Positions 1 through 30,506 of a stretch of DNA of 64,000 nt are shown here, in pieces. Made by a program: the position numbers and the translations under genes. This DNA is from Justusliebigvirus alia: sequence record OZ035799.1. One strand, written 5' to 3'. Each line of letters begins with the position of its first letter. Within the stretch, counting starts at the first letter, position 1. The notes under the pieces are model-generated. The model saw only the letters and a list, made by a program, of their open reading frames with translations, had not been told where the DNA came from and did not search any database.

Positions 1-138
1 GAATAGCTGGGCGGTCGCTAACTTTGGGCAATGGTCGAGCGTTGAGTACATCGAAGCCTACCAGGTGCCAACGATTAGCCTAACCGATCTGAATGTTGAT
101 CGCTTGTTGTGCCTGGATCAATTAAATTAAAAATAATA

Positions 139-196
139 TTGACAAGATAACTAAAATCAGTAAAATGTAATGCATAGGGCGGCAATAGTGCCGCTC
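139..196 (+). promoter_or_regulatory. sigma70-like promoter (TTGACA-N17-TAAAAT) followed by GC-rich hairpin GGGCGGCAATAGTGCCGCTC (PeSL-like cassette)
   Basis: -35/-10 hexamers with about 17-bp spacer; inverted repeat immediately downstream, about 20 nt before ATG at 218. Confidence 0.6.
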
Positions 197-217
197 CTAG
201 TGAGAGAGATTATCAAA

Positions 218-433
218 ATGACTAATATCCGCACCTTGTTAAAAAATGCAAAGCAAGTTTTATTTTCAGATGACGAATATTTTAATAAAGATATTACAGG
301 CGTGAAAAATTTAAAAGACGTGAAGGATGTTATCGGTATCCGTGGATCTTTACGTAAAGGTGACATATACGGTAACAAGGTGCAATATAAACTGTCAAAA
401 GATTATGATTTTACTTTGACATTTATTTCATAA
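218..433 (+). CDS. hypothetical protein (71 aa; start refined to internal ATG behind RBS)
   Basis: ORF track 170..433; ATG at 218 follows purine-rich RBS and the 5-prime hairpin. Confidence 0.55.
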   Translation: MTNIRTLLKNAKQVLFSDDEYFNKDITGVKNLKDVKDVIGIRGSLRKGDIYGNKVQYKLSKDYDFTLTFIS

Positions 434-478
434 AACCGCTTGCAATACTGCAAAAATAAAGTAAACTGTACTCATCAA

Positions 479-500
479 GGCGGTGGAATAGCCCACCGCC
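479..500 (+). promoter_or_regulatory. 5-prime UTR hairpin GGCGGTGG-N6-CCACCGCC
   Basis: perfect 8-bp inverted repeat upstream of ATG at 524. Confidence 0.45.
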
Positions 501-523
501 TAACAAAGAGAAGAGGAAACATC

Positions 524-694
524 ATGATCACTTTCGCTACCCGTGAAGCCGCTCGCAACGTTGCACGTAAAGTTAACGCCGCCAACCTGGGCGCTACGCT
601 TAAAGCCCCGGTAAAAGATGAATCAGGTAAATGGATCTTCCCTGGTCTGCGTCACGCTGATAAGCTGGGAACGTTAACGCTAAAAAATAAATAA
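524..694 (+). CDS. hypothetical protein (56 aa)
   Basis: internal ATG of ORF 440..694 preceded by RBS AAGAGAAGAGGAAAC and hairpin. Confidence 0.5.
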   Translation: MITFATREAARNVARKVNAANLGATLKAPVKDESGKWIFPGLRHADKLGTLTLKNK

Positions 695-701
695 AATCCG
701 C

Positions 702-760
702 TTGACAGTAGCATCATTTATAAGTAAAGTAACAACAACGGCGGGAAATGGTTTCCCGCC
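702..760 (+). promoter_or_regulatory. PeSL-like cassette: TTGACA-N17-TAAAGT promoter plus hairpin GGCGGGAAATGGTTTCCCGCC
   Basis: promoter hexamers and 9-bp inverted repeat; same hairpin recurs at 3049, 3415, 5061. Confidence 0.65.
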
Positions 761-780
761 ATCAATAAAGAGATAAGATC

Positions 781-1140
781 ATGAAATCAGTAAAAGCAAT
801 TAAAACTTACATTGTGTCGGCTATTTCTTTTGATGGTACTACAACCGAAAAAGAAAAGATCACCGAACTGATGCGCCGTTTTAACTCTGAATACTGGTAT
901 CCCGATAATCAAAAACGTTACAATTATAACGTGATCAAGGCGATAGCCTCATGGTTACAAGGTTTACCGTCAGAAATCAATATTGCTTTTGATTATAACG
1001 AGATCGATCACTTGTTAATTGAATGGAAGTACATAAAAGAAACAAGCAAAGAAACAACCGTTACCCGTGAGCGGGAAAATTATTGGTTATATATTGCAAG
1101 CATGATCGTAATCCTGGCAAAACAGCATAACGTGGCGTAA
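781..1140 (+). CDS. hypothetical protein (119 aa)
   Basis: ORF with RBS AAAGAGATAAG; downstream of PeSL cassette. Confidence 0.65.
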   Translation: MKSVKAIKTYIVSAISFDGTTTEKEKITELMRRFNSEYWYPDNQKRYNYNVIKAIASWLQGLPSEINIAFDYNEIDHLLIEWKYIKETSKETTVTRERENYWLYIASMIVILAKQHNVA

Positions 1141-1155
1141 TTAAGAGGAAGAAAC

Positions 1156-1293
1156 ATGAACGCATCACAGCAGATCGAAAAATTCAACCGCAGCAAGGCG
1201 CGTAAAGATTGGAACGAAGAGATCACCAAAAAAGGCGACAAGCGGAACAAAACAAAGAGAGATCGCAGCACAAAAAGATACTGGAACGAATAA
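1156..1293 (+). CDS. small basic hypothetical protein (45 aa)
   Basis: ORF not in track (<60 aa); RBS AAGAGGAAGAAAC; followed by terminator. Confidence 0.45.
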   Translation: MNASQQIEKFNRSKARKDWNEEITKKGDKRNKTKRDRSTKRYWNE

Positions 1294-1300
1294 CAAAAAA

Positions 1301-1324
1301 GGGCGCAATAAGCGCCCTTTTAGC
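1301..1324 (+). terminator. rho-independent terminator (GGGCGC-AATAA-GCGCCC + T-run)
   Basis: GC hairpin followed by TTTT. Confidence 0.7.
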
Positions 1325-1411
1325 TTATATAGAGGCTTGTTACCCATAGGCAATGGTAATGCCAGGATAAGCCTATAAACCACGTTAGACAGCTTTACAG
1401 GAGCTTTAAAA

Positions 1412-1594
1412 ATGAAATTAGAAGAAATAAGCAAGGCACTAGCCCAGGGGCAAAGGTTAAACGCCCGTTATCGTGATCAATATGGCTTCATAACCAGCGG
1501 CGTGATCCTGGGGATTGAAGGCAATAAGATTTTTATTGACACGTTGAAAAACGTTGTATATAGTGACAATATAATCTCAATAAAACATATATGA
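1412..1594 (+). CDS. hypothetical protein (60 aa)
   Basis: ORF with RBS ACAGGAG. Confidence 0.55.
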   Translation: MKLEEISKALAQGQRLNARYRDQYGFITSGVILGIEGNKIFIDTLKNVVYSDNIISIKHI

Positions 1595-1602
1595 GGCAAG
1601 AA

Positions 1603-2004
1603 ATGAAAAAATTATTGATCGCTGGTTTAATCTCTTTTGGCATGGTTGGAACATCTAGCGCGGCGATATCCTCCACAGTAGCAGAATTAAGCGCCGTTGA
1701 TGCAATGGAAAACGTCATGCTTATTAATAATGCGATCCCCGATGAAATCATGGAGGATTCACACATGATCGCTTATGGTGCTGTTACACAACTAACGGCA
1801 AAAATAGATAAATCTATTGTTAATGGCTTAAATGAAGATGTACCATGTGAAATTATTACCAGTGTGCTCACTACTCAAAATTTTACGCCGTGGTTAAAAA
1901 GTATTCAAAAAGTACACAGTACAGCCGCAGATCGTAGCAATGAAAAACTAGTGTCAGCACTTGCAACGTATACCCTAGCAAAATGTACCGAGATAAAAGA
2001 TTGA
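1603..2004 (+). CDS. hypothetical secreted protein with N-terminal signal peptide (MKKLLIAGLISFGMVGTSSA)
   Basis: hydrophobic N-terminus with A-x-A-like cleavage context. Confidence 0.55.
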   Translation: MKKLLIAGLISFGMVGTSSAAISSTVAELSAVDAMENVMLINNAIPDEIMEDSHMIAYGAVTQLTAKIDKSIVNGLNEDVPCEIITSVLTTQNFTPWLKSIQKVHSTAADRSNEKLVSALATYTLAKCTEIKD

Positions 2005-2027
2005 CAATATAGAAAGCACGTTATAAG
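2001..2027 (+). promoter_or_regulatory. sigma70-like promoter (TTGACA ... TATAAG)
   Basis: hexamers upstream of CDS 2052. Confidence 0.45.
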
Positions 2028-2051
2028 ATACACACAACAAAGGAGAACTAC

Positions 2052-2354
2052 ATGAACGGCATAGCTAAAACGTTTTTTCTTTTTTCTGGTGTAAATGATC
2101 CATCAATAAAAGTCGATAGTGTAAAAGAAAACAATACTATCACAGCTAAATTGTCTCAAGATGAAACAAATAACGTGCTAATCATTAATCTTAAAGAAAT
2201 AACAAAAGGTTATTACACTATTGCTTACCATGCGATCTATAATGCTGGTACTAGTGAGGAAGTGCAAACAAGCAACAACGAAAGCGCGGCGCTACCTGGT
2301 GATCTGGTGCTGGGCGTTATCAGTTTAATTGTCAATGATTTTTTTAAGGAGTAA
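2052..2354 (+). CDS. hypothetical protein (100 aa), hydrophobic N-terminus
   Basis: ORF with RBS AAAGGAGAAC. Confidence 0.6.
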   Translation: MNGIAKTFFLFSGVNDPSIKVDSVKENNTITAKLSQDETNNVLIINLKEITKGYYTIAYHAIYNAGTSEEVQTSNNESAALPGDLVLGVISLIVNDFFKE

Positions 2355-2612
2355 AACCATGCCCTATTTACATTTATTTTTCGGTATCTTATTGACAGGA
2401 TCTTTTTTCTTCTGTATGCTTGTTTCTATTGTAAACCACGTTTTAAGACATTAAGGAAACAGCATGAAAATTATTCCCGTACAGTATAGCGTAATAAATC
2501 CAGCATATGAGGAAGGAAGGAAAACAAGCATGGCTTTATGTTGTATTGCTACTATAGCCATGTTATTATATATTGTGTTTTAATAGGTTTTATAGTTGTA
2601 CGCTTTAAAGGC

Positions 2613-2641
2613 TTGACAATTTTTTGTTATGCTTTAAAATA
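2613..2641 (+). promoter_or_regulatory. sigma70-like promoter
   Basis: TTGACA-N17-AAAATA upstream of CDS 2684. Confidence 0.45.
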
Positions 2642-2683
2642 TATCTTGAAAACGGCAAAGGCCGCAAACAAAAGGGTAAAATT

Positions 2684-3007
2684 ATGAAATCTGTGATCGG
2701 TGTTTATTTGGATAACTCTGATTTTTTCTATCATCGTGCGCGTTTCCTTGATGCGATTGAAATGATAGAATCAGGCTTTAAAGAGTATCGCCTTGCACAT
2801 GATGACCTGGAAGCATTACAGGGCAATAGTGTTTTTACATTGCAAGCTAAAGCACTATGCAAAAGCCGGATCGACATTGCAAGCAAAAAGATAGAACGCG
2901 GCATGTCCTGGTTGCGCACCGCAGAAATCAACATGGGGCAATGGTACGGCGAAAACTTAGAAAATAAACACACTTTTGTAAATGTAGAAAATATTAAAGA
3001 TTATTGA
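2684..3007 (+). CDS. hypothetical protein (107 aa)
   Basis: internal ATG of ORF 2624..3007 preceded by RBS AAAGGGTAAAATT. Confidence 0.55.
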   Translation: MKSVIGVYLDNSDFFYHRARFLDAIEMIESGFKEYRLAHDDLEALQGNSVFTLQAKALCKSRIDIASKKIERGMSWLRTAEINMGQWYGENLENKHTFVNVENIKDY

Positions 3008-3070
3008 TTGACAGCACACCTGATAAGTAATATATTGTATCTCATAGAGCGGGGAAATGGTTTCCCCGCC
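3008..3070 (+). promoter_or_regulatory. PeSL-like cassette (TTGACA-N17-TATATT + hairpin GCGGGGAAATGGTTTCCCCGC)
   Basis: promoter hexamers plus inverted repeat before ATG 3090. Confidence 0.65.
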
Positions 3071-3089
3071 TTAACAGAAGAGATAAGAT

Positions 3090-3374
3090 ATGAAGATCAC
3101 AAAAGCACTTTCCAACTATGCAGCACGTCGCGGCTTATGCTTAACCGTTGAAAACTTAGGGAAAGAAGATTTTTTGTGCTTTTGGGAGCTTGAGAATGAT
3201 AATGAGTGGATCTTCTCTTATTCTATCTGCAAAGATCAAAATGGTTGCTTGTTAACATGGCGAGGTAATATCTATTTACCGGAAGAAATAAAACAAGAAT
3301 TACCAGGCACGATCATGACTGAGAAACAGCTTAAGGAAGTGATCAATTTTGTAGGGCAAAACATTAAAAAATAA
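3090..3374 (+). CDS. hypothetical protein (94 aa)
   Basis: ORF with RBS AGAAGAGATAAG. Confidence 0.6.
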   Translation: MKITKALSNYAARRGLCLTVENLGKEDFLCFWELENDNEWIFSYSICKDQNGCLLTWRGNIYLPEEIKQELPGTIMTEKQLKEVINFVGQNIKK

Positions 3375-3375
3375 T

Positions 3376-3437
3376 TTGACAGTAGGCAAACAACGTAGTA
3401 AAGTTTATCACATAGGGCGGGAAATGGTTTCCCGCTC
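3376..3437 (+). promoter_or_regulatory. PeSL-like cassette (TTGACA-N17-TAAAGT + hairpin GGGCGGGAAATGGTTTCCCGC)
   Basis: promoter hexamers plus inverted repeat. Confidence 0.65.
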
Positions 3438-3458
3438 ACAACAAAAGAGAAACAAATC

Positions 3459-3629
3459 ATGATCCCGACTATGTTTTACGTATCGCGCAAAGGTCACAAT
3501 ATTTTTTGGTCTGAAGATTTAAATGAAGCCATGACGTTTGCCCGTGATCGTGTTGCTATCGGTGGCGTTAATATTACCGTAACCGATGAAAACGGCATTG
3601 AATACTACAACGGCGACGATGAAGAGTAA
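3459..3629 (+). CDS. hypothetical protein (56 aa)
   Basis: ORF not in track; RBS AAAAGAGAAAC; directly behind PeSL cassette. Confidence 0.5.
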   Translation: MIPTMFYVSRKGHNIFWSEDLNEAMTFARDRVAIGGVNITVTDENGIEYYNGDDEE

Positions 3630-3636
3630 TTAATAA

Positions 3637-3658
3637 GGCGGGGGGAGTATTCCCCGCC
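3637..3658 (+). promoter_or_regulatory. GC-rich hairpin GGCGGGGGGA-GTAT-TCCCCGCC in 5-prime UTR
   Basis: inverted repeat 20 nt upstream of ATG 3678, no T-run. Confidence 0.5.
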
Positions 3659-3677
3659 ATCAATAAAGAGATAAATC

Positions 3678-3947
3678 ATGAAAATATCATTGGACGTTGC
3701 AATCAAGGCCATCGAATCCGGTTACACCCTGGTAAAAGATGATAAGGCTAAAATAGTGCATCATGTTAACAAGGAAACAGGCGAAAGCATGATCACATAT
3801 AAAGCCGCCTACTTTCTCCAATCAGTAGCAGATCCGCGCGTACAGCGCCAGGTCACGGCGGCTATTGCTAAAAAATTATGTGCTTTACAGGGCACAAGTT
3901 TTAACGAGATCCCGCCGTGTTTTGACTGGTCGAGCTTGAAAAAATAG
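3678..3947 (+). CDS. hypothetical protein (89 aa)
   Basis: ORF with RBS AAAGAGATAAATC. Confidence 0.6.
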   Translation: MKISLDVAIKAIESGYTLVKDDKAKIVHHVNKETGESMITYKAAYFLQSVADPRVQRQVTAAIAKKLCALQGTSFNEIPPCFDWSSLKK

Positions 3948-3948
3948 T

Positions 3949-4005
3949 TTGACAAAAATTATAAATCGGGTAGAATGTATTTCGTAGGGCGGCAATAGTG
4001 CCGCT
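3949..4005 (+). promoter_or_regulatory. PeSL-like cassette (TTGACA-N17-TAGAAT + hairpin GGGCGGCAATAGTGCCGCTC)
   Basis: same hairpin sequence as at 177-196. Confidence 0.65.
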
Positions 4006-4027
4006 CGCAACTAAAAGAGAAATCATC

Positions 4028-4222
4028 ATGGCGCTTAAAAAACTAACAAGCAATACTCGTTGGGATGAAATCGACGGGGAAGTATACATTTTCGCCCGTA
4101 AACCAGGTGATCAAAAATGGTCAAAGGCTTTTACTTGTCACCCTGCAACAATAGATCTAATAAAAAGTAAAGGTTTACGTGAAGCAGTAGCGAGAAGTTT
4201 ACTGATTCCTTGTAAAAAATAG
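4028..4222 (+). CDS. hypothetical protein (64 aa)
   Basis: internal ATG of ORF 3998..4222 behind RBS AAAAGAGAAATC. Confidence 0.5.
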   Translation: MALKKLTSNTRWDEIDGEVYIFARKPGDQKWSKAFTCHPATIDLIKSKGLREAVARSLLIPCKK

Positions 4223-4223
4223 T

Positions 4224-4285
4224 TTGACAATATGCGGTTATCTGGTAAAGTGTACCACGTAGGGCGGGGCAATAAGGCAACGCCC
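4224..4285 (+). promoter_or_regulatory. PeSL-like cassette (TTGACA-N16-TAAAGT + hairpin GGGCGGGG...CGCCC)
   Basis: promoter hexamers plus inverted repeat; followed by a 34-aa membrane-peptide ORF at about 4304. Confidence 0.55.
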
Positions 4286-4418
4286 ACTAATGAGGGTAAA
4301 ATCATGTTAGAGAAAATTTTCACGGTTGTAATAGTGGGCCTGGCGTTATCGGTTGGAGTGATTGCAACTATGGCTAACATGATCCTATCTTCCCACGGTA
4401 TTGGATAAGGTGAATCAA

Positions 4419-4634
4419 ATGATCACGAATAAGACAGGTAAAACGGAATTTTTACGCGGCTTGCAAATAGGTAAACCTGAGATCTGGCATTGCACTAAAA
4501 GACCACGTGACGAAATGAAAGATTTCACCGCTACTTTACAACGTGTTAAAATATCTATCACACAGAAAAAAGCCTTGTTAGTAGTAGAAAACGAGATCCC
4601 GCAAACCATTATTATTGTCGAGCGTACAGCATGA
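4419..4634 (+). CDS. hypothetical protein (about 71 aa)
   Basis: ORF track 4401..4634; start ambiguous (4401 or 4419). Confidence 0.5.
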   Translation: MITNKTGKTEFLRGLQIGKPEIWHCTKRPRDEMKDFTATLQRVKISITQKKALLVVENEIPQTIIIVERTA

Positions 4635-5017
4635 AAACTGAAATCATTAACGAAATGATCAACGGCTATAAAGAAGCCTTTATTTTTGCCGAACCAGCGA
4701 CGGATCACAATGGGGAATATATTGAGAATCTAGACGATTATGATTTTTCTCCTAGCGCCCTGAAACGTATTACCAGCGATGTGACCGCCTTTTGTAGTGC
4801 CAATGTTGCCGCTATCTCTGAGGCAATGAGCGACGGCGCAACAGCAAACCAGATCGGGAATGACTTACATTTCACCCGTAACGGTCACGGCGTAGGCTTT
4901 TGGGATCGCCCTGAAATATACACTACTAACACCGCCAACCGCCTAACAAATGCAGCTAAATTAATGCCATCGGTGCATGCTTACATTGGTGAAGATAATT
5001 TGATTTATATTGAATAA
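4631..5017 (+). CDS. hypothetical protein (128 aa)
   Basis: ORF, start overlaps upstream stop (ATGA coupling). Confidence 0.6.
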   Translation: MKTEIINEMINGYKEAFIFAEPATDHNGEYIENLDDYDFSPSALKRITSDVTAFCSANVAAISEAMSDGATANQIGNDLHFTRNGHGVGFWDRPEIYTTNTANRLTNAAKLMPSVHAYIGEDNLIYIE

Positions 5018-5022
5018 AAGTA

Positions 5023-5081
5023 TTGACACCGATCCCCAGTATGGTATTATTTACCACGTAGGCGGGAAATGGTTTCCCGCC
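5023..5081 (+). promoter_or_regulatory. PeSL-like cassette (TTGACA-N17-ATTATT + hairpin GGCGGGAAATGGTTTCCCGCC)
   Basis: promoter hexamers plus inverted repeat. Confidence 0.65.
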
Positions 5082-5104
5082 AGGTAATCAAAAAGGTAAA
5101 TACT

Positions 5105-6707: not shown

Positions 6708-6913
6708 ACCTCAATAAAGATGATAGCTTTTACCTATCAAAAACGTTCACCGAAAAAAGTGAATAGATCGCGGTATCGAGCTAATCAAGGAGCAGATGAA
6801 CAACCATACCATGAAGATCATAAGGCGCTTACAACGTGTTTTAGACCGCTTATTTTTAATTTCTTCATGCAACTATCTGGCAAAAACAGCCTTTTTCTTG
6901 TCTTTCCTCTTAA

Positions 6914-6987
6914 ATGATAATCATTCTTATTTATAGCTGATTATTTATGCAATAAACTGCATAATGCAATAATGATAATCATTCTTA
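6914..6987. repeat. two copies of 17-bp direct repeat AATGATAATCATTCTTA, each a Fur-box-like palindrome
   Basis: exact repeat at 6914-6930 and 6971-6987; core matches E. coli Fur consensus GATAATGATAATCATTATC. Confidence 0.55.
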
Positions 6988-7346
6988 ACTTATGACCATC
7001 TAACCTATAAAATAATAAGTTATCTAACTAAATTAAAACTAATTATCTTACTTTTATTTATAACTTACTGTTACTATCTCATTGATAACCTTATATTAAA
7101 CAACAATAACTAATATAAATCATTACTAAGCTAAATATAATCTATCTAACCTTTAAAACTATAACTATAATCTATTGAATTATTGCACAAAGTAACTATT
7201 AAATCGTTAGTAACATTACTAAATAATTAATATCCTATTTATTTATGATCTAATCTTTACCTTACTATCTATTACCTAAATAATCATTTTATACCGTAAT
7301 CATTTCATACAATAATTATAACAAGAAATATAATTAGCAAGCGTAT

Positions 7347-7523
7347 CATTAGCAGCCTATGCCGGACACATAGGCGGCTAATAATAACGCAACTACACAC
7401 CCCACATAATAACCATCACCGATAGTTATTATTTGTGCTTATGTAGCTTGCAACAACTGCAAGCGCAACAATATACATGGTATATTGTATTCCCTTACAT
7501 TGTTGCGGTGCGTTATTATTAGC
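7347..7523. repeat. nested inverted repeats (outer 15-bp IR GCTAATAATAACGCA at 7377-7391 / 7509-7523; inner hairpins at 7347-7369 and 7448-7466)
   Basis: reverse-complement matches seen directly in sequence. Confidence 0.5.
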
Positions 7524-7550
7524 TAATGTTTAGAACATTGGCTATAATAT

Positions 7551-7620
7551 AAGCTATCCAATAATATAAGCTATCCAATAATAATAAGCTATACAATAAT
7601 AATAAGCTATACAATAATAA
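7551..7620. repeat. four tandem copies of a 17-18 bp unit AAGCTAT(C/A)CAATAATAAT (iteron-like)
   Basis: head-to-tail repeats seen directly. Confidence 0.7.
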
Positions 7621-7916
7621 ACATCGTGAATAATGATGCTGATGATCATAATGCGCCACCTTCCAGGGCGGCGCTATGTGAACACAAAGAAATCTTTCTT
7701 GTCAAGAAAAATATTAACACTATTGCGCAAAATTATTTATATATGAATAGATGGTTTTTCATACTATTGCCCCTATAACATACCTCATTTGTTGCAATGT
7801 ACCTTCCTATTTGTTGAGTATAGTTATAGCCTATTTGTTGAGCCTACTTTCTTAAAAGCGCAATAAAGTAGAAATATCTTGATTTTTAGTCGGTTTTATA
7901 GTACAGAAAGTATGCA

Positions 7917-7932
7917 AATGATAATCATTATC
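7917..7932. promoter_or_regulatory. Fur-box-like palindrome AATGATAATCATTATC
   Basis: 17 of 19 positions match the 19-bp Fur consensus. Confidence 0.5.
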
Positions 7933-8097
7933 AGCTATCTTCCACGGGTAGCACTATTTCACGCCAGATCATTTCATTTGGCAAGGTGTATATAGATGTT
8001 TAGACTTGCCAAGCCATTGATTTACTTAGAATTTATCTGTTTTGTTGTGAGTAGTACCTTTCTTGCTCAGAAAATAATCAAAAGTCTTATAAGTCAT

Positions 8098-8133
8098 TGA
8101 ATGATAATGCAAATGATAATTATTCTCATTGAT
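8098..8133. promoter_or_regulatory. Fur-box-like elements (GAATGATAATG / AAATGATAATTATTCTCATT)
   Basis: partial matches to Fur consensus. Confidence 0.35.
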
Positions 8134-8502
8134 ATTTGAGGGGGACGGTCGGCAGAAATCGGGGGGCGCTGAAAATCGCGTTAAGCACCTCTCGCAAGCG
8201 AGCAGTATTTTGCGGCAAGTTATTGATATTATTGACTTTACGCTTATGAAAAGGGGGTGTGTCGAAATAAATCGGGTATACCGGAAAATTTTTGTGGCAT
8301 AGATATTTATTTGTCTATATTATGTACAAAGGGGTGTGTTAAAAATATTAGGTATATATAGAATAATTGATAGGGAAATCCTATGCTAATCCCTCCATTA
8401 ATGATGTTCCTATGTTACTGTTCTTGTAATAGATGAAAAGACGCTGTATGATGTGTGGCATGAAACGTAAACTTACAACGTAAACTTATAAAGGAGTCTG
8501 AT

Positions 8503-9999: not shown

Positions 10000-10176
10000 A
10001 TGGATAAACAAACTACTGTGTACTTAGTAACAAAGAATACCCCAGGCTGGAGCCAATGCAGCACTGTACCTTACAAAATCTGTGCAACATTAGAACTAGC
10101 ACAACGTGCAGAAGCAGAAGTGAATGCCATGCAATACAGCTATGGTGAAATCATTCCTTTTACTCTTGAACAATAA
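10000..10176 (+). CDS. hypothetical protein (58 aa)
   Basis: ORF not in track; RBS AAGAGGAAAAG. Confidence 0.5.
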   Translation: MDKQTTVYLVTKNTPGWSQCSTVPYKICATLELAQRAEAEVNAMQYSYGEIIPFTLEQ

Positions 10177-10187
10177 GGAGTTGTGTA

Positions 10188-10640
10188 ATGTTTGAAATTG
10201 GTAAAGTGTATCGTTTTAAAAACCCATCTTATATCCGTAAGTTTGCTAACGTGTCTGAGTGCAATAGCAGGATTGCTTCTTTTTTAGGTGATTCCTATTT
10301 TCGTGTATTAGATGTGGATGACTGGTATGGTGTCACTGCTTTGCAATCCTTAGCAGGAGAACAAGAAATTATCGCTCAAAATGAAGGAGACTTTCTTCAG
10401 TGTTACACGTTGCTTGCAAAAAGTGAGTTTGAGTATTTTGTAGAAGTCTTAGAGGAAGCACCAAAAAGTAAACACGAAGAGAAATACCTGCTTGTAGTGG
10501 ATGGAGTTCCGATCATGGAAACCATCTCCCGTGAGGAAGTTGAAAAAGAGGCGAAACGTTACAAACTGGATCGTACACAGAGTGTAGTTGAAGTCTATTC
10601 TCTTGTTGGTGTTGCAGATATTCATGTGAACATTGTATAA
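10188..10640 (+). CDS. hypothetical protein (150 aa)
   Basis: RBS AAGGAG. Confidence 0.65.
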   Translation: MFEIGKVYRFKNPSYIRKFANVSECNSRIASFLGDSYFRVLDVDDWYGVTALQSLAGEQEIIAQNEGDFLQCYTLLAKSEFEYFVEVLEEAPKSKHEEKYLLVVDGVPIMETISREEVEKEAKRYKLDRTQSVVEVYSLVGVADIHVNIV

Positions 10641-10643
10641 TAT

Positions 10644-10856
10644 ATGTGTAATGACAGATACATTCTTCGTGTATCTGATAAGTCTCCTATGTTTGACTGG
10701 CGGGGCTGGTGGCTACTGGCTCCGATGCAAGGTCTGACTGACGTGGAAAAGGAGGCTTATGTGTATACAAAAGAAGATATAGAAGATAACCTTTATTTGA
10801 CAGATAACATTAAGAATGGTATCTTTGAGTGTAAATTGAAAGGAGAGGAAGAATGA
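10644..10856 (+). CDS. hypothetical protein (70 aa)
   Basis: ORF, weak RBS. Confidence 0.45.
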   Translation: MCNDRYILRVSDKSPMFDWRGWWLLAPMQGLTDVEKEAYVYTKEDIEDNLYLTDNIKNGIFECKLKGEEE

Positions 10857-12153: not shown

Positions 12154-12738
12154 ATGAGTAAAATTATACCAAGCAGTTATGAATTATTGCAGTTTTATGT
12201 ATATTATATAGACTGGGTTAATAGATCGAATGTTAAAGACAATGCGATGTTTAGTAAAAACATCTGTTTAACAGAAAGTATCTTCCGTTATTGGCACACA
12301 GGCAGAAAGTGTACACACAGTGAAGCTATGCGTATTGTAGGTGAATACCTGGAGCAATTGCAAAAAGCAGAACTTCCTGTCCTTCACCCATTCAATGAAT
12401 CTAAAGAAGAATTAGAACAAGAGTGTAGAGAAGGTAAGTGCCATCTGAATGAAAAACGTATCGAATGGGTGAGGCAACGTTTAGCCGATGCAGGAAATCC
12501 TCCTAGTGACTCTGACTATACGTGGTATGATGTAGAGGGTTTAGTTCAAGGTTTTGAGGCTTGTGCTATAGATAATACCAACTTTGCCAAAGTTTTATGC
12601 GAGGCTTATGACCTGGCAGATAAAATCCGAAATCACGGATGGAAACAAGAGCATAAAGAATCATATGAACGCCTTGACAAGATTTTCAAACAGATCTATT
12701 CTAACCACAAGAAGATGTTCCAAATGGAGGATGTGTAA
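12154..12738 (+). CDS. hypothetical protein, paralog family member D with C-terminal extension (194 aa)
   Basis: RBS TAAGGAGAGG; N-terminal 120 aa carries family motifs (LQFY, HPFN, RIEWVRQRL). Confidence 0.65.
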   Translation: MSKIIPSSYELLQFYVYYIDWVNRSNVKDNAMFSKNICLTESIFRYWHTGRKCTHSEAMRIVGEYLEQLQKAELPVLHPFNESKEELEQECREGKCHLNEKRIEWVRQRLADAGNPPSDSDYTWYDVEGLVQGFEACAIDNTNFAKVLCEAYDLADKIRNHGWKQEHKESYERLDKIFKQIYSNHKKMFQMEDV

Positions 12739-12804
12739 TGAAAGAGATTATGTTTGAAGGGCATCGCATTGAATTGCTAAAACACGTTAAATAAGGAGAG
12801 TAAT

Positions 12805-13209
12805 ATGTGGTCTGTTAAAATCAAATATAATGCGCAGTATTATGGTGGAAAGCCTTACGAAGTTGTTATTTGTGACTGTATCTCTAAAGAAGTTGCACAG
12901 CTTTGTGGTGCTGGTGTTAGTGAAGCTATGAACAAAATGCATAACTCGACTGTGCGTTACCTGGATCAAGATATTCCAGAAGATGTAAATGACTATGCTT
13001 ACGAAGTTATTTACAGTGAAGGTAAGAAGCTCTCTATTGAAGATGCACTTAAAGCACTACCTGCTATGTGCAGCCCAACACCAGAAGCAGTTAAAGAGAT
13101 TTTACCAGAATCCAACCCCGATGAATATGCCTCTATGGTTGCTTCAGATATGTGGAATCTCTGTCGAGAAACTATGATTAAAAATCTTGTGGAAATGGCA
13201 CATGAGTAA
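12805..13209 (+). CDS. hypothetical protein (134 aa)
   Basis: RBS TAAGGAGAG. Confidence 0.65.
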   Translation: MWSVKIKYNAQYYGGKPYEVVICDCISKEVAQLCGAGVSEAMNKMHNSTVRYLDQDIPEDVNDYAYEVIYSEGKKLSIEDALKALPAMCSPTPEAVKEILPESNPDEYASMVASDMWNLCRETMIKNLVEMAHE

Positions 13210-24428: not shown

Positions 24429-24949
24429 ACAACCTCCTCGTAGTTGTTATTGTGTTTTACTGTCTCAACATACAATAAAGATTCCATCTGTAATACATTA
24501 CCAGAAATAATAAACCCATAGGCCATTTCAGATGTGTCTATATCATATGCCCCGTCTTCCGGTTTAGCAAAGTGTAAAACTATTTCATCTGGGTTTTCTT
24601 CATCCCATAGTTTAGAAATTTTCCGAACCAGAATGTTCGCTAAAATAGTTGACATTCGGGATAAAGCTGTATCCTCATATCTTTTAAAACCTAGCCAATA
24701 GAGGTTAAGAATTTCTACTTCTTCTTGTGTTAAGTTTTTGTCTAAAGTAATCAGATCTGTAGAGCACGGCGTTTTTGTTGAACCTACTGTTACAAAACCT
24801 GGGGTGTTATGAAAAACAATCTTAACTTTATCACGTATAAAGTTTAAACCTTGTGCCTCAACTATATATTGTATTGTAGGTACAATATCGTTTGTTACAT
24901 CAATAAAACTATCTTTAATGACGCTTATATTATTTCTGGACAAGACCAT
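24425..24949 (-). CDS. hypothetical protein (174 aa)
   Basis: ORF. Confidence 0.6.
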   Translation of the reverse strand: MVLSRNNISVIKDSFIDVTNDIVPTIQYIVEAQGLNFIRDKVKIVFHNTPGFVTVGSTKTPCSTDLITLDKNLTQEEVEILNLYWLGFKRYEDTALSRMSTILANILVRKISKLWDEENPDEIVLHFAKPEDGAYDIDTSEMAYGFIISGNVLQMESLLYVETVKHNNNYEEVV

Positions 24950-25508
24950 TCTCCTCTAAAATAGGCTTAATAAATTCGAAAATTTGTTTTTTACTTTTAC
25001 CTCGAATATTAAAACAAGGAACATTAAACTTTTTAGCCAACATCCAAGCTGTTCTTGTACCACCTAAAGGATCTCCATTTTTATCTGTATTTGCACAAGC
25101 TAAAAGAAAACAAGATGGTTTTGGATTCTCAAGATCTCTTCCAAGAACTTGGTGGATATTTCTTTGATGTAATTTTTTAGCACCTTGAGATAATCTGTCC
25201 CAAGCTGGATGCAATTCTTTTGCATATTGCAAGGTTAAAGCATAGTTTACACTATCTGGTCTATCAAGAACAATAACCTCTCCCTCTATCTCATTACCTT
25301 TAAACGAGAGCCAAGGAATGTATATTTCTTTCTTTGTATTGTTCCCACTCTCATATACCCCGCATTCAAATGCGGAATCTGCACCTTCTGCTTTACCAGA
25401 TCGCAAAATGAACCATGTAGATAACCATTTTGCAACAGATACCATAGTATCCCATTCTTCGTCTGTAATATCTCTGCTACCAACACCTGTGTAGAATAAA
25501 TCGCTCAT
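24930..25508 (-). CDS. DprA/Smf-like (SLOG-superfamily Rossmann) protein, putative
   Basis: N-terminal YTGVGSRDIT motif; start refined to MSDLFYTG with RBS AAGGAGAAAAC. Confidence 0.45.
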   Translation of the reverse strand: MSDLFYTGVGSRDITDEEWDTMVSVAKWLSTWFILRSGKAEGADSAFECGVYESGNNTKKEIYIPWLSFKGNEIEGEVIVLDRPDSVNYALTLQYAKELHPAWDRLSQGAKKLHQRNIHQVLGRDLENPKPSCFLLACANTDKNGDPLGGTRTAWMLAKKFNVPCFNIRGKSKKQIFEFIKPILEENGLVQK

Positions 25509-26918: not shown

Positions 26919-27491
26919 TTAATGTGTTAATGAAACTGCGTAGCTAAACACAGGTTCAGATATTACATCGGCTACAGTAATAAAAACGTCTTCGTCTTGA
27001 GTTGTTTCTACACGACATACAGTTACACCATTCACCACGAATTCAACGCAATGTGGAATATCTTCACAAACGAAGGTAGTGTAAGTAACACCCAAAGCAT
27101 CATACAAAGATTTAACAGTGTTTGCAAGTGCCGCAGTTTCTTCTTTTTCTGAGACAATGAATGCTGTAACAACAAGATTGTTTGCATAGTTTAGACTGTC
27201 CTCTATAGCCAATGATTTACAAGGTAGTAATGCAAAATATTTACCTGGTTTAATCAGACCTGCTTCCCATTGATTCAAAATTGCCTGGGATGGTTTAGTA
27301 ATATAAAACAGATTTTCACTTGGGTTATCAATATTACTTCTGGCGATACAACGTGAAGGATTATTAATATCAAATACATGATCAAAATCTACACAAACAG
27401 GTAAACTGAAAGGTGTGAATTTTTTACCTAATAATCCTATGGCTGATAATATGTTTGCTGTGCTTATCTTCCCGTTAAAAGCTAAACGCAT
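26919..27491 (-). CDS. hypothetical protein (190 aa)
   Basis: ORF. Confidence 0.6.
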   Translation of the reverse strand: MRLAFNGKISTANILSAIGLLGKKFTPFSLPVCVDFDHVFDINNPSRCIARSNIDNPSENLFYITKPSQAILNQWEAGLIKPGKYFALLPCKSLAIEDSLNYANNLVVTAFIVSEKEETAALANTVKSLYDALGVTYTTFVCEDIPHCVEFVVNGVTVCRVETTQDEDVFITVADVISEPVFSYAVSLTH

Positions 27492-27715: not shown

Positions 27716-28378
27716 TTATTTAATATTCAATTTTGCACAAAGACGTTGTACCGCTTTGGCATCGAACAAACTCCCACGAATAGTTCTCTTTCCTGATTCA
27801 TTCAGATGCTTTGCAATCGTCATATATGGCGTTCTACAAGCTCTGTATGCAACTAAAGAATCTTTTAAAGAAAGCGCAAACTCTCTTGAGCGTTTTGCTT
27901 CTTCCGTTTTCGTATAATCTGTTCTTTTGTATTTAGGGTTTGCTGCACCAAGAAGCGTTCCCTTCGCTTTTGCTACCTTAAGGCTCTTCTTAACACGATC
28001 AGATATTGCACGAGCCTCTTCTTCTGCCAGAACTGCTAAAATATTTATTATCATATTTTCAGCGGAGGGCATAGTTGCAATCCGTACATTAATCATCTCT
28101 AACAAGGTTGCAACAGAAGCTGTGTTACGTCCAAGACGGTCAACCTTAGCAACAACAAGTGTAGCACCTGTTTCTTTGCAAAGATTAACAGCTTTTACAA
28201 GCTCTCTACGTTGCTTCCAATCGCCTTTACCAGAATAAAACTCTGCAAAGCTACCTACAATAGTATAATTTTCTTGTGAATCCAGGAAGCGTTGGATATC
28301 TGCTTCCTGTGATTCTATACCATACTGGTTGCCTTGTTGTTTCTTCTTAGAAAGTCGATGATACAGTACAAACTTCAT
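27716..28378 (-). CDS. small serine recombinase (resolvase/invertase family) with C-terminal HTH
   Basis: N-terminal YHRLSKKKQ...GIESQ and LVVAKVDRLGRN motifs. Confidence 0.75.
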   Translation of the reverse strand: MKFVLYHRLSKKKQQGNQYGIESQEADIQRFLDSQENYTIVGSFAEFYSGKGDWKQRRELVKAVNLCKETGATLVVAKVDRLGRNTASVATLLEMINVRIATMPSAENMIINILAVLAEEEARAISDRVKKSLKVAKAKGTLLGAANPKYKRTDYTKTEEAKRSREFALSLKDSLVAYRACRTPYMTIAKHLNESGKRTIRGSLFDAKAVQRLCAKLNIK

Positions 28379-28435
28379 AATACCCTCCTGTTCTGTTGCA
28401 GGAAGTATGCACTACCTTAATGTTAAAGTCAACAG

Positions 28436-28651
28436 TTAAGTAGTGGTAATATCATCCTCTTGAATAGCAGGGTCAACTTCTGCAAAGATAGCCTCTACAG
28501 GAATTTCTTCACCTGCTATTCTAGAAAGAAGCACTGAACCAATAGCTTTTGCGTGTTCTTCGGATTCCGCATAAACATTAGTTCCTGTGTCTTTTTTCTT
28601 AGTTTCGTTAAAATATACCAGATAGTAATTGTATGCCATTATTCTTCCCAA
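28436..28651 (-). CDS. hypothetical protein (71 aa)
   Basis: ORF. Confidence 0.5.
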   Translation of the reverse strand: MGRIMAYNYYLVYFNETKKKDTGTNVYAESEEHAKAIGSVLLSRIAGEEIPVEAIFAEVDPAIQEDDITTT

Positions 28652-29852: not shown

Positions 29853-30506
29853 TTAATTATCAGAGGACACTTTATCAAGTTTTTCAGAGACTGTCAATAC
29901 TTTTTCTTGTGATTCTTTCATTTCTGCTAAAATACTTTCAGCTTCATCACTATCAGGATCACCAGTCAACAGCATACTAATTAGTTGCTCCTTGCTGAAG
30001 TTCAGAATATCTTCCGCTGTTAGCTCCAGTTGTTCTTCGATCTCTTCGATAAAAGTTTCACCGCCGGAAAAAGCATCTCGTAGTTTTGCAACTTCCATCG
30101 CTTCTTCTGGAGTTGCCCCTGCATCTAAAGCTGCTAAAGCAAAATCTGCCCCACTACCAACAGCATAATAATCTTCAGTTAAAGGATATGCTCGCGTGGG
30201 ATTATTACCCTCGTGCATATAAATTTTACCGTCTGGGTGAACAACCAATGCCACAAACTCTTCATCTTCTTTATCAGGATCTGACTGGATCACCAAACCT
30301 GGGATTGTCTCTTGTGCTGCTTGGCATTGTAAGTTTTGTTCGAACCAAGAAAAGAAAGTCAGGATAGAAGACAGACGTCCTGCACCACCAACAAGGTAAT
30401 CCCCAATTTTACGCACTTTCTTGAAATTTAAAGTGTCTACACGACTACCTACTGTTACTTTACCGTCAGACAGAATTTTGTTACGTGTTGCAATAATTGT
30501 TGTCAT
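29853..30506 (-). CDS. HslV/ClpQ-like N-terminal-nucleophile peptidase (proteasome beta-subunit fold) with acidic C-terminal extension
   Basis: starts MTTIIA (Thr2 nucleophile after Met), KKVRK, AVGSGADFALAALDAG resembling HslV GSGG region. Confidence 0.7.
   Translation of the reverse strand: MTTIIATRNKILSDGKVTVGSRVDTLNFKKVRKIGDYLVGGAGRLSSILTFFSWFEQNLQCQAAQETIPGLVIQSDPDKEDEEFVALVVHPDGKIYMHEGNNPTRAYPLTEDYYAVGSGADFALAALDAGATPEEAMEVAKLRDAFSGGETFIEEIEEQLELTAEDILNFSKEQLISMLLTGDPDSDEAESILAEMKESQEKVLTVSEKLDKVSSDN

What the first reader, a model, noticed from the sequence alone, without database searches (positions are those of the whole stretch)
27716..28378. Small serine recombinase (resolvase/invertase type) inside a lytic-looking genome
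The 220-aa product has the catalytic N-terminus YHRLSKKKQ...GIESQ, the LVVAKVDRLGRN motif and a C-terminal HTH. It is too small for a large serine integrase, so it is likely a DNA invertase or resolvase. In phages these drive inversion switches such as tail-fibre host-range variation, or resolve replication dimers. Its target site is not obvious in this window.
Basis: partly seen in the sequence, partly recalled or inferred. Interest (0 to 1): 0.55.

Follow-up and report, generated by a model that had tools for sequence, protein, structure and literature searches.

The report
Serine recombinase without an inversion switch
The gene is a real, intact site-specific recombinase already annotated in phi92-like virulent coliphages; comparison of 55 sibling genomes shows it does not flip tail-fibre or other segments, and what it recombines is still unknown.

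Summary
Window 27716-28378 (-) encodes a 220-aa serine recombinase with an intact catalytic set (Pfam PF00239, 78 bits). The window is a phi92-like Justusliebigvirus, and the gene is phi92 gp053, already labelled 'DNA invertase/recombinase' in GenBank.

The invertase and tail-fibre-switch reading is not supported:
- The 148-kb genome has no inverted-repeat pair other than terminator or promoter hairpins.
- All 55 sibling records are collinear over the whole genome, tail-fibre modules included.
- The one exception is a ~1-kb inversion 10 kb outside the window. It has no repeats at its junctions and is a fixed, old haplotype.

No res-like site was found. A 36-bp dyad over the gene's promoter is unique in the genome but not conserved in relatives. 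Footprinting of ±1.5 kb shows no embedded cis-element.

What stands out:
- The C-terminus resembles the start of the 'recombinase domain' of large serine integrases, not a resolvase HTH.
- The gene has its own conserved sigma-70-type promoter and dN/dS of about 0.06.
- It is conserved in large virulent myoviruses as distant as Shewanella and Vibrio phages.
- No prophage or plasmid copy exists in 5,426 E. coli genomes.

My best guess, at low confidence, is a lox/res-like single-site recombination between phage genome copies.

The parts
27716..28378 (-). CDS of the 220-aa small serine recombinase (orthologue of phi92 gp053)
   Evidence: ORF listing. Pfam PF00239 78 bits and PHROG 125. 99-100% identical in 55 Justusliebigvirus records. 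dN/dS of 0.06 against Klebsiella phage FKP3.
27956..28378 (-). Catalytic domain plus helix E (aa 1-141). The Ser10 codon TCT lies at 28349-28351.
   Evidence: Pfam match to residues 4-141. Invariant Y6, R8, S10, D80, R81, R84, E121 and R128. Predicted beta-alpha fold with a long helix at 108-138. Foldseek matches to the Sin catalytic domain with TM 0.70-0.76 normalised to the target.
27731..27907 (-). C-terminal four-helix DNA-binding domain (aa 158-216), related to the first part of the 'recombinase domain' of large serine recombinases
   Evidence: Helices at 158-170, 172-180, 185-194 and 207-216, with block pLDDT mostly 83-93. Family motif IA..LN..G..T..G......V.R. PF07508 hits in 41 of 64 members, best 3e-07. 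The full-length model aligns best to Bxb1 and PhiC31 integrases over about 250 columns. The query itself has no HTH_7 hit.
28404..28432 (-). Dedicated sigma-70-type promoter: TTGACT (28432-28427), 17-nt spacer, CATACT (28409-28404)
   Evidence: Consensus scan. TTGAC and cATAcT are conserved at the same spacing in 9 lineages of 78-100% protein identity, while the spacer is not. TTGACA-type promoters also occur in the 50-70-bp gap before the phAPEC8, Shewanella 1/40 and Vibrio orthologues.
28384..28389 (-). Ribosome-binding site AGGAGG
   Evidence: Read directly from the sequence. Conserved in all lineages. Annotated as an RBS in phi92.
28410..28445 (-). Imperfect 36-bp dyad CACTACTTAACTGTTGA-ct-TTAACATTAAGGTAGTG overlapping the -35. 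A weak candidate operator or binding site.
   Evidence: For: 13 of 17 symmetric positions, p=0.02 against shuffles, in the top 3.2% of genome windows, and unique in the genome. Against: not conserved in relatives, and the combined test without alia is not significant (statistic recomputed by hand from the per-lineage p-values).
28386..28403 (-). Small inverted repeat TCCTG-N8-CAGGA between the -10 and the start codon, overlapping the RBS
   Evidence: (D16). Comparable 5'-leader dyads occur in the FKP3, P0023 and Vibrio orthologues. Function not tested.

Best explanation
SHOWN. The gene encodes a catalytically intact small serine recombinase of a large, mostly phage-borne clade. It combines a resolvase-type catalytic domain and helix E with a truncated DNA-binding domain of the large-serine-recombinase type. 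It lacks a zinc ribbon and a coiled coil. It is a vertically inherited gene of phi92-like virulent myoviruses under strong purifying selection. It has its own conserved sigma-70-type promoter inside a DNA-metabolism operon. It does not operate an inversion switch in this genome.

INFERRED, low confidence. The host RNA polymerase transcribes the gene early. Dimers bind a simple site that is present once per genome copy. When two copies of that site meet, on sister genomes, in circular dimers or in head-to-tail concatemers, two dimers form a tetramer. Ser10 then cuts all four strands, the subunits rotate, and the ends are rejoined. The outcome would be lox/res-like interconversion of monomeric and multimeric phage DNA, either resolution or Int-like dimer formation. 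This would not depend on host RecA.

The site itself was not identified.
For: Identity and activity:
- Domain matches.
- Invariant catalytic residues in the 64-sequence family alignment.
- dN/dS of 0.06.

Architecture:
- Structure model.
- Fold matches.
- PF07508 hits in 41 of 64 members.
- Family size: 3,126 representative clusters at E<=1e-30. Most of the best 150 are about 215-245 aa and match end to end.

Vertical, conserved core gene:
- Present in 55 of 55 Justusliebigvirus records.
- Strict synteny in seven lineages of 78-88% identity.
- The order HslV ... recombinase ... DprA is shared with Shewanella phage 1/40.
- Homologues occur in Phapecoctavirus and in marine Vibrio phages of 127-160 kb.

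Own promoter.

Not an inversion switch.

No lysogeny: no match in 5,426 complete E. coli genomes.

A one-site-per-genome system fits the absence of any repeated site pair in the genome. From general knowledge of loxP, cer and res, such systems need only one site per monomer. Small serine recombinases on non-integrating replicons are most often resolvases.
Against: - No site has been identified.
- The only candidate, the promoter dyad, is not conserved in relatives.
- There are no accessory subsites.
- Footprinting of ±1.5 kb across 8 lineages shows no conserved non-coding or synonymous element. Classical res sites lie next to the resolvase gene.
- A virulent phage with direct terminal repeats packages from concatemers, so the benefit of resolution is not obvious.
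- In Phapecoctavirus the gene sits in an unrelated neighbourhood.
- No experimental data exist. The literature offers only speculation.
Confidence: 0.33

Rival explanations
1. The protein is a DNA invertase that flips a segment of the phage genome bounded by inverted crossover sites, for example to vary tail fibres or to flip a promoter.
For: Weak sequence and fold resemblance to Gin and to the Bacteroides master invertase Mpi. Many GenBank records call it 'DNA invertase'. One ~1-kb inversion polymorphism does exist in the genus, with 24 of 55 records in the other orientation.
Against: - No inverted-repeat pair exists in the 148-kb genome beyond hairpins.
- Tail-fibre regions and the rest of the genome are collinear in all siblings.
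- The single inversion has no inverted repeats at its junctions.
- It carries unique junction sequence, and one breakpoint lies inside an ORF.
- Its orientation is perfectly linked to 66-86%-identity alleles in 6 of 6 versus 6 of 6 genomes.
- The protein has no HTH_7 domain and scores 32 bits against the Mpi model cutoff of 272.
Confidence: 0.04
2. The recombinase acts on host DNA rather than phage DNA. It would rearrange, excise or break a host locus, such as a defence island, a phase-variable element or another chromosomal site, as part of takeover or counter-defence.
For: It is expressed from a host-type promoter, so presumably early. No partner site or repeated site exists in the phage genome. 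Catalytic residues are conserved.
Against: Orthologues occur in phages of E. coli, Klebsiella, Shewanella and Vibrio, so a shared host target is not obvious. A scan of one genome per bacterial species for the promoter dyad gave one hit, which is chance level, in a Bacillota MAG. There is no precedent in the literature searched.
Confidence: 0.15
3. The gene is a selfish or dispensable passenger: a minimal mobile module (promoter plus recombinase, IS607-like in spirit) or a remnant of one, with no role in the lytic cycle.
For: It has its own promoter. In Phapecoctavirus and a Vibrio phage only the recombinase is shared with the phi92 neighbourhood. phi92-like genomes carry other selfish genes, namely HNH endonucleases. 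Small serine recombinases of similar size are common in giant viruses and uncultured phages.
Against: - It is present in 55 of 55 siblings at the same position.
- Seven more lineages are strictly syntenic.
- dN/dS is 0.06.
- It occurs once per genome (one place per record).
- No terminal repeats or target duplications flank it.
- The catalytic domain is N-terminal, unlike IS607 TnpA.
Confidence: 0.12
4. The protein supports a hidden non-lytic state, acting either as an integrase for rare lysogeny or as the dimer resolvase of a plasmid-like carrier state.
For: The C-terminal domain is of the integrase (large-serine-recombinase) type. Resolvases are typical of plasmid prophages (paper PMC8026635, listed).
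Against: There is no megablast match to the gene region in 20,395 replicons of 5,426 complete E. coli genomes. The protein lacks the zinc-ribbon and coiled-coil domains that give large serine recombinases their attP x attB selectivity (220 aa). These phages are described as strictly lytic.
Confidence: 0.04
5. It works mainly as a sequence-specific DNA-binding regulator (repressor or architectural protein) with a recombinase fold, and strand exchange is not its biological output.
For: Dyads overlap the promoter or leader in several orthologues, which suggests autoregulation. No recombination product is detectable in 55 genomes.
Against: The whole catalytic set is invariant across 64 sequences down to 31% identity. 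That is not expected if catalysis were unused. The dyads are not conserved.
Confidence: 0.07

Closest known systems
Sin, Tn3 and gamma-delta resolvases (small serine recombinases of plasmids and transposons)
   Same: Same catalytic domain and helix E. These are the best sequence matches among solved structures (profile E of 3e-16 to 1e-14) and the best fold match for the catalytic domain. The Y6/R8/S10 and D-R-x-x-R motifs match. The size class is similar.
   Different: The C-terminus has no HTH_7. There is no adjacent multi-subsite res. The segment between strand 4 and helix E is about 10 residues shorter (alignments). There is a 5-residue insertion after Ser10, as in large serine recombinases (the comparison rests on my own knowledge). 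The host replicon is a virulent phage.
Gin, Hin, Cin and Pin DNA invertases of temperate phages and enterobacteria
   Same: Serine recombinases of about 190 aa encoded by phages. Weak homology (E about 1e-14 with the profile, catalytic core only).
   Different: No invertible segment, no gix/hix-like inverted repeats, and no orientation heterogeneity in tail-fibre genes. The DNA-binding domain is different. An enhancer and Fis dependence cannot be tested here.
Large serine recombinases (Bxb1, PhiC31, TP901-1 integrases; CcrB)
   Same: The full-length model aligns best to these over about 250 columns, covering the catalytic domain, helix E and the start of the recombinase domain. PF07508 hits occur in 41 of 64 members. 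The best NCBIfam resemblance is the N-terminal 225 of 542 positions of CcrB.
   Different: It is less than half their size. It has no zinc ribbon and no coiled coil, which are the elements that select attP x attB and control direction. No prophages are known.
Cre/loxP of phage P1 and Xer/cer (single-site multimer resolution)
   Same: A functional analogy only: one simple site per genome copy, with recombination between sister copies and no need for a second site in the monomer. This is the model I favour.
   Different: Those enzymes are tyrosine recombinases with known sites, and P1 is a plasmid prophage. Here no site is known and the phage is virulent.
Bacteroides master invertase Mpi (NF009949)
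   Same: A serine recombinase of about 200 aa that acts in trans on distant sites. Partial profile match over residues 6-195.
   Different: 32 bits against a cutoff of 272, so it is not a member. Mpi acts on many inverted-repeat-flanked promoters, and none are found here.

Membership tests
Serine recombinase superfamily (PF00239 catalytic domain) | Resolvase-type catalytic domain scoring above the Pfam gathering threshold | tested here: met
   78.3 bits against a cutoff of 23.3, residues 4-141. All 64 family members match.
Serine recombinase superfamily (PF00239 catalytic domain) | Nucleophilic serine in a Y-x-R-x-S motif, plus the conserved Arg/Asp/Glu set | tested here: met
   Y6, R8, S10, Q24, D80, R81, R84, E121 and R128 are invariant in 64 sequences. 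That these correspond to gamma-delta Y6/R8/S10/D67/R68/R71 rests on my own knowledge.
Serine recombinase superfamily (PF00239 catalytic domain) | Long helix E following the catalytic core | tested here: met
   Predicted helix at residues 108-138, pLDDT about 90.
Classical resolvase/invertase subfamily (Tn3, gamma-delta, Sin, Hin, Gin) | C-terminal HTH_7-type helix-turn-helix of about 40 residues | tested here: not met
   No HTH_7 hit at E<=1. The C-terminal region is about 80 residues with four helices and gives PF07508 hits in 41 of 64 members.
Classical resolvase/invertase subfamily (Tn3, gamma-delta, Sin, Hin, Gin) | Resolvases: a res region with several dimer-binding subsites next to the gene | tested here: not met
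   The upstream gap is 57 bp. It holds a single weak dyad, there are no accessory half-sites within ±300 bp, and no conserved element within ±1.5 kb.
Classical resolvase/invertase subfamily (Tn3, gamma-delta, Sin, Hin, Gin) | Invertases: an invertible segment bounded by inverted crossover sites, seen in both orientations | tested here: not met
   No such inverted repeats in the genome. The 55 genomes are collinear. The single inversion lacks inverted repeats and is haplotype-locked.
Classical resolvase/invertase subfamily (Tn3, gamma-delta, Sin, Hin, Gin) | Invertases: a Fis-bound recombinational enhancer | not testable with these tools
   This needs biochemistry. No unusual synonymous conservation was seen inside the gene, where Hin and Gin enhancers lie.
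Large serine recombinases (phage integrases, CcrAB, TnpX) | Complete recombinase domain plus zinc-ribbon domain with a coiled coil; length above about 400 aa | tested here: not met
   The protein is 220 aa. The model ends after a four-helix bundle. NCBIfam CcrB matches only profile positions 10-225 of 542, at 35 bits against a cutoff of 900.
Large serine recombinases (phage integrases, CcrAB, TnpX) | Integration into a host attB (prophage state) | tested here: not met
   No match in 5,426 complete E. coli genomes.
IS607-type serine transposases | N-terminal MerR-like HTH preceding a C-terminal catalytic domain | tested here: not met
   The catalytic domain starts at residue 4 and the DNA-binding domain is C-terminal.
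Mpi family master DNA invertase (NF009949) | Score above the NCBIfam equivalog cutoff | tested here: not met
   32.1 bits against a cutoff of 272.

The most novel reading that the evidence does not exclude
These ~220-aa 'mini large-serine-recombinases' may form a phage-specific class that carries out a lytic-cycle task by site-specific recombination. That task could be processing the phage's own replicating DNA at a fast-evolving single site (a serine-recombinase counterpart of Cre/loxP in a virulent phage). It could also be cutting and rejoining a host locus during takeover. Either would explain why a deep lineage of strictly virulent myoviruses, from E. coli to Vibrio and Shewanella phages, keeps the enzyme under strong purifying selection.
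Probability: 0.25. Interest if true: 0.6.

Novelty: new member of a known kind. Interest (0 to 1): 0.33.

Why it matters
Phage-therapy safety screens treat recombinase genes as markers of a temperate lifestyle. phi92-like and phAPEC8-like phages are therapy candidates and all carry this gene. One genome paper even states that no recombinase is present in ESCO5 and ESCO13, although both encode it.

The evidence here argues that the gene is not a lysogeny marker. There are no prophage or plasmid copies in 5,426 E. coli genomes, no att-type machinery, and no inversion switch.

The open biological question is modest but real. An active site-specific recombinase is a conserved early gene in a deep lineage of virulent phages, and its job is unknown. 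The architecture, a catalytic domain plus a truncated integrase-type DNA-binding domain, is very common in metagenomic phages (3,126 clusters at E<=1e-30). It could also interest those seeking compact recombinases as tools, if it recombines simple sites.

Tried and rejected
1. Inverted and direct repeats in the window and in the whole genome. Only terminators, promoter-proximal hairpins, tRNA arms and Fur-box-like palindromes turned up.
2. A second copy of the gene's upstream region anywhere in the genome. The best matches equal the null.
3. A genome-wide inversion census in 55 siblings. It was negative except for one locus. Apparent extra 'places' were record ends, palindromic promoter hairpins or joining artefacts; one of them, in ESCO9, was checked locally and is collinear.
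4. The ~1-kb inversion as the recombinase's product. I rejected this for three reasons: no inverted repeats at the junctions, unique junction sequence with a breakpoint inside an ORF, and perfect linkage to old alleles. The 'ins' gene shared by both orientations can be explained by local homologous exchange.
5. The promoter dyad as a crossover or operator site. It is unique, has no accessory sites, and is only in the top 3% of genome windows. It is not conserved: after removing alia, the discovery case, the combined test (recomputed by hand) is not significant.
6. A host partner site. The result was chance level.
7. Prophage or plasmid forms. None were found.
8. Footprinting and synonymous-site conservation within ±1.5 kb. 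Nothing was found.
9. The Fur-box-like palindromes at the genome terminus as recombinase sites. The symmetric core is only 13 bp and matches the Fur consensus, so these are more likely regulatory.
10. Literature. No functional study exists.

Full report
OBSERVATION

It matches the Pfam resolvase catalytic domain PF00239 at 78.3 bits (cutoff 23.3) over residues 4-141. It also matches PHROG 125 'DNA invertase' (2e-31) and the N-terminal part of PHROG 95 'integrase'. Among solved structures it matches Sin, Tn3 and gamma-delta resolvases and Gin. The quoted motifs are present. In a 64-sequence family alignment Y6, R8, S10, Q24, E46, G50, D80, R81, R84, E121 and R128 are invariant.

WHAT GENOME THIS IS

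The window is 100% identical to the last 64 kb of OZ035770.1, Justusliebigvirus alia. This is a 148,442-bp phi92-like virulent myovirus of the Stephanstirmvirinae. The gene is the orthologue of phi92 gp053. Various GenBank and RefSeq records already annotate it as 'DNA invertase', 'recombinase family protein' or 'hypothetical protein'. All 55 closely related records (about 49 distinct genomes) carry it at 98.6% amino-acid identity or more, once per genome and at the same position.

THE PROTEIN

An AlphaFold model built from 64 homologues is confident (mean pLDDT 88.6). It shows the resolvase beta-alpha core, a long helix E (108-138), a lower-confidence linker, and a four-helix C-terminal domain (158-216).

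The catalytic core superposes best on Sin. The full-length model aligns best with large serine recombinases (Bxb1, PhiC31) over about 250 columns. The query has no HTH_7 hit, but 41 of 64 family members give PF07508 'Recombinase' hits in the C-terminus, the best at 3e-07.

No NCBIfam model is reached. The nearest are the N-terminal half of CcrB, the Bacteroides master invertase Mpi and YneB, all far below their cutoffs.

So the protein is a small serine recombinase, but its DNA-binding domain is a truncated integrase-type domain rather than the resolvase/invertase HTH. The architecture is very common. A profile search of 1.84 billion representatives finds 3,126 clusters at E<=1e-30. Most of the best 150 are about 215-245 aa and match end to end. 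Those looked up are almost all unnamed metagenomic sequences. Similar proteins of about 230 aa occur in uncultured phages and giant viruses.

CONSERVATION AND CONTEXT

Homologues occur in the following phages, all large myoviruses described as lytic:
- Klebsiella phage FKP3 (78% identity)
- Phapecoctavirus (57%)
- Klebsiella phage KP13-16 (51%)
- Shewanella phage 1/40 (40%)
- marine Vibrio phages of 127-140 kb (33-38%)

Seven lineages at 78-88% identity are strictly syntenic. The order HslV-like peptidase ... recombinase ... DprA-like is shared with Shewanella phage 1/40. In phAPEC8 and a Vibrio phage, only the recombinase is shared with the phi92 neighbourhood. A 37%-identical member sits among NAMPT, PRPP-synthetase, ligase and rIIB genes of another large phage.

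dN/dS between alia and FKP3 is about 0.06, with synonymous sites near saturation.

In every lineage a gap of 50-70 bp precedes the gene within an otherwise tightly packed operon. The gap contains a sigma-70-type promoter. In alia it is TTGACT-17-CATACT at 28432-28404. The -35, -10 and RBS are conserved across nine lineages while the spacer is not.

TEST OF THE INVERTASE IDEA

1. Repeats. A self-comparison of the complete genome finds no inverted repeats other than terminator hairpins and a family of promoter-proximal hairpins.
2. Census. I compared the whole genome in seven chunks with all phage records. All 55 siblings are collinear, including the structural module and both tail-fibre/tailspike regions. 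There, coverage gaps reflect divergent fibre modules, not segments on the opposite strand. Extra 'places' were record ends, palindromic hairpins or joining artefacts; one of them, in ESCO9, was checked locally and is collinear.
3. One real inversion surfaced. A block of about 1 kb at genome 74,594 to about 75,600 (10 kb left of the window) has the opposite orientation in 24 of 55 records. The block holds two small genes, a divergent promoter region and the 5' part of the phi92 gp217-like ORF.

That inversion is not a switch:
- Its junctions show no inverted repeat in either orientation, and the score equals shuffled controls.
- One breakpoint splits an ORF that is intact (183 aa) in the other orientation.
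- The B-type junction holds about 100 bp of unrelated sequence.
- In 6 of 6 genomes of orientation B, the sequences next to the breakpoints are deeply diverged alleles: X at 74-75%, the promoter region at 85-86%, and g141 at 66-70%.
- In 6 of 6 genomes of orientation A, the same regions are 93-100% identical.

This is the signature of one ancient rearrangement inherited as a haplotype.

TEST OF THE RESOLVASE IDEA AND SEARCH FOR A SITE

The upstream gap of alia contains a 36-bp imperfect dyad over the -35. It has 13 of 17 symmetric positions, p=0.02 against shuffles, and falls in the top 3.2% of genome windows. It is unique in the genome, since the next best dimer site scores 25/34, which equals the null. 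It has no accessory half-sites.

A single site per genome is what a lox- or res-like multimer-resolution system needs. However, the dyad is not conserved. With the axis constrained to the -35 region, only 2 of 10 other lineages reach p<0.05. The combined test including alia gives p=0.016. Removing alia, the discovery case, and recombining the per-lineage p-values by hand gives X2 of about 26 with 20 degrees of freedom, which is not significant.

Footprinting of ±1.5 kb across eight lineages shows no conserved non-coding stretch. There is no invariant run of 11 nt or more. Synonymous sites in the gene show no suppression beyond the first codons.

The dyad has no counterpart in bacterial genomes beyond chance.

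The gene region has no match in 5,426 complete E. coli genomes, so lysogeny or plasmid carriage is unsupported.

INTERPRETATION

Firmly shown:
- The gene encodes an intact, selected serine recombinase with its own promoter.
- It belongs to a large phage-borne clade.
- It is a long-standing gene of a virulent phage lineage.
- No inversion switch or repeated site pair exists in the genome.

Inferred: the most economical mechanism is recombination between identical simple sites on different copies of the phage genome, which would resolve multimers or form dimers. Three considerations support this. Most small serine recombinases on non-integrating replicons do this. It needs only one site per genome. 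And a recombinase without the directionality domains of large serine recombinases should accept identical sites.

I rate this at about one in three. No site was found, and the usefulness of resolution for a concatemer-packaging phage is unclear. Action on host DNA, a selfish passenger, a regulator, and the invertase model are rivals, with confidences given in their own section.

The literature held here has no functional data. One paper merely suggests a resolvase role (PMC10282059). Another overlooks the gene (PMC5374246).

VERDICT

This is a correct identification of an already annotated gene. The attractive invertase/host-range story is refuted at the level of about 49 genomes. What remains is a modest open question about the role of this recombinase clade in virulent phages.

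Noticed in passing
L003:24594-25600 (OZ035770.1 genome 74,594 to about 75,600; 9-10 kb left of window position 1): A ~1-kb inversion polymorphism in Justusliebigvirus. The block [g142, g143, divergent promoter region, 5' part of the phi92 gp217-like ORF] is in the opposite orientation in 24 of 55 records. In orientation A, the 5' part and g141 form one 183-aa ORF. In orientation B they are split into two genes. There are no inverted repeats at the junctions, and orientation is perfectly linked to old alleles.
   Followed up: yes
window 6913-6925, 6971-6983, 7917-7929, 8112-8124; also L003:30200-30262: Clusters of a near-perfect Fur-box-like palindrome (AATGATAATCATT). The site at 7917 matches 17 of 19 positions of the E. 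coli Fur consensus, which I cite from my own knowledge. They lie in the long non-coding region around the phi92-type genome terminus and in a second non-coding region. Counts were 17 matches with up to 2 mismatches against 6.7 expected, reached by 0 of 100 shuffles. This suggests iron/Fur-responsive control or Fur titration by the phage.
   Followed up: partly
window 6840-8340: A 1.5-kb non-coding region spanning the position that corresponds to phi92 base 1 (window 7841; 343-bp direct terminal repeat in phi92). It contains four tandem 18-bp repeats (7549-7619), an extremely AT-rich stretch (7000-7330) and GC-rich hairpins (7330-7520). It may be an origin or packaging region.
   Followed up: no
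window 129-5090 and L003:31244-34336: Repeated early-promoter modules (TTGACA ... TAGAATGTA), each followed by a conserved near-palindromic hairpin (GGCGGGAAATGGTTTCCCGCC or GGGCGGCAATAGTGCCGCTC). There are at least eight copies in direct orientation. These palindromes cause spurious opposite-strand hits in genome comparisons.
   Followed up: no
window 59517-62140: A cluster of 15 tRNA genes on the plus strand.
   Followed up: no
public records MG065639, MG065645, MG065656, MG065689 ('Campylobacter phage'); PQ110661 (vB_EcoM_ZYD); OP562383 (Acinetobacter phage ABPW7): Likely mislabelled records. Four 'Campylobacter jejuni phages' are 96-99% identical to this coliphage over the regions compared. 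ZYD carries a Vequintavirus taxonomy line although it is a Justusliebigvirus. An 'Acinetobacter phage' shows the same tblastn identity (56.9%) and score to the query as the E. coli Phapecoctavirus records.
   Followed up: no
NC_047776.2 (ESCO5) 10023-10685; KX552041.2 (ESCO13) 12540-13202: The ESCO5/ESCO13 genome announcement states that no integrase or specific recombinase is present (PMC5374246). Both genomes nevertheless encode the 57%-identical orthologue, and the ESCO13 record even labels it 'resolvase'.
   Followed up: partly
P0084 (902 aa, 4 matched stretches), P0085 (683 aa, 7 stretches) and about 30 others: Some database proteins contain two to seven matched stretches of this recombinase profile. 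These could be tandem arrays fused by gene calling or true multi-module proteins.
   Followed up: no
window 26919-27491 (-): A 190-aa ORF is annotated 'histidyl tRNA synthetase' in RefSeq relatives. That is far too short for a HisRS, so it is probably an over-annotation of a partial domain.
   Followed up: no
window 24900-25500 (DprA-like), 29853-30506 (HslV-like), compared with L006: Gene order HslV-like peptidase ... serine recombinase ... DprA-like protein is shared between phi92-like coliphages and Baltic Sea-ice Shewanella phage 1/40, despite only about 40% protein identity.
   Followed up: partly
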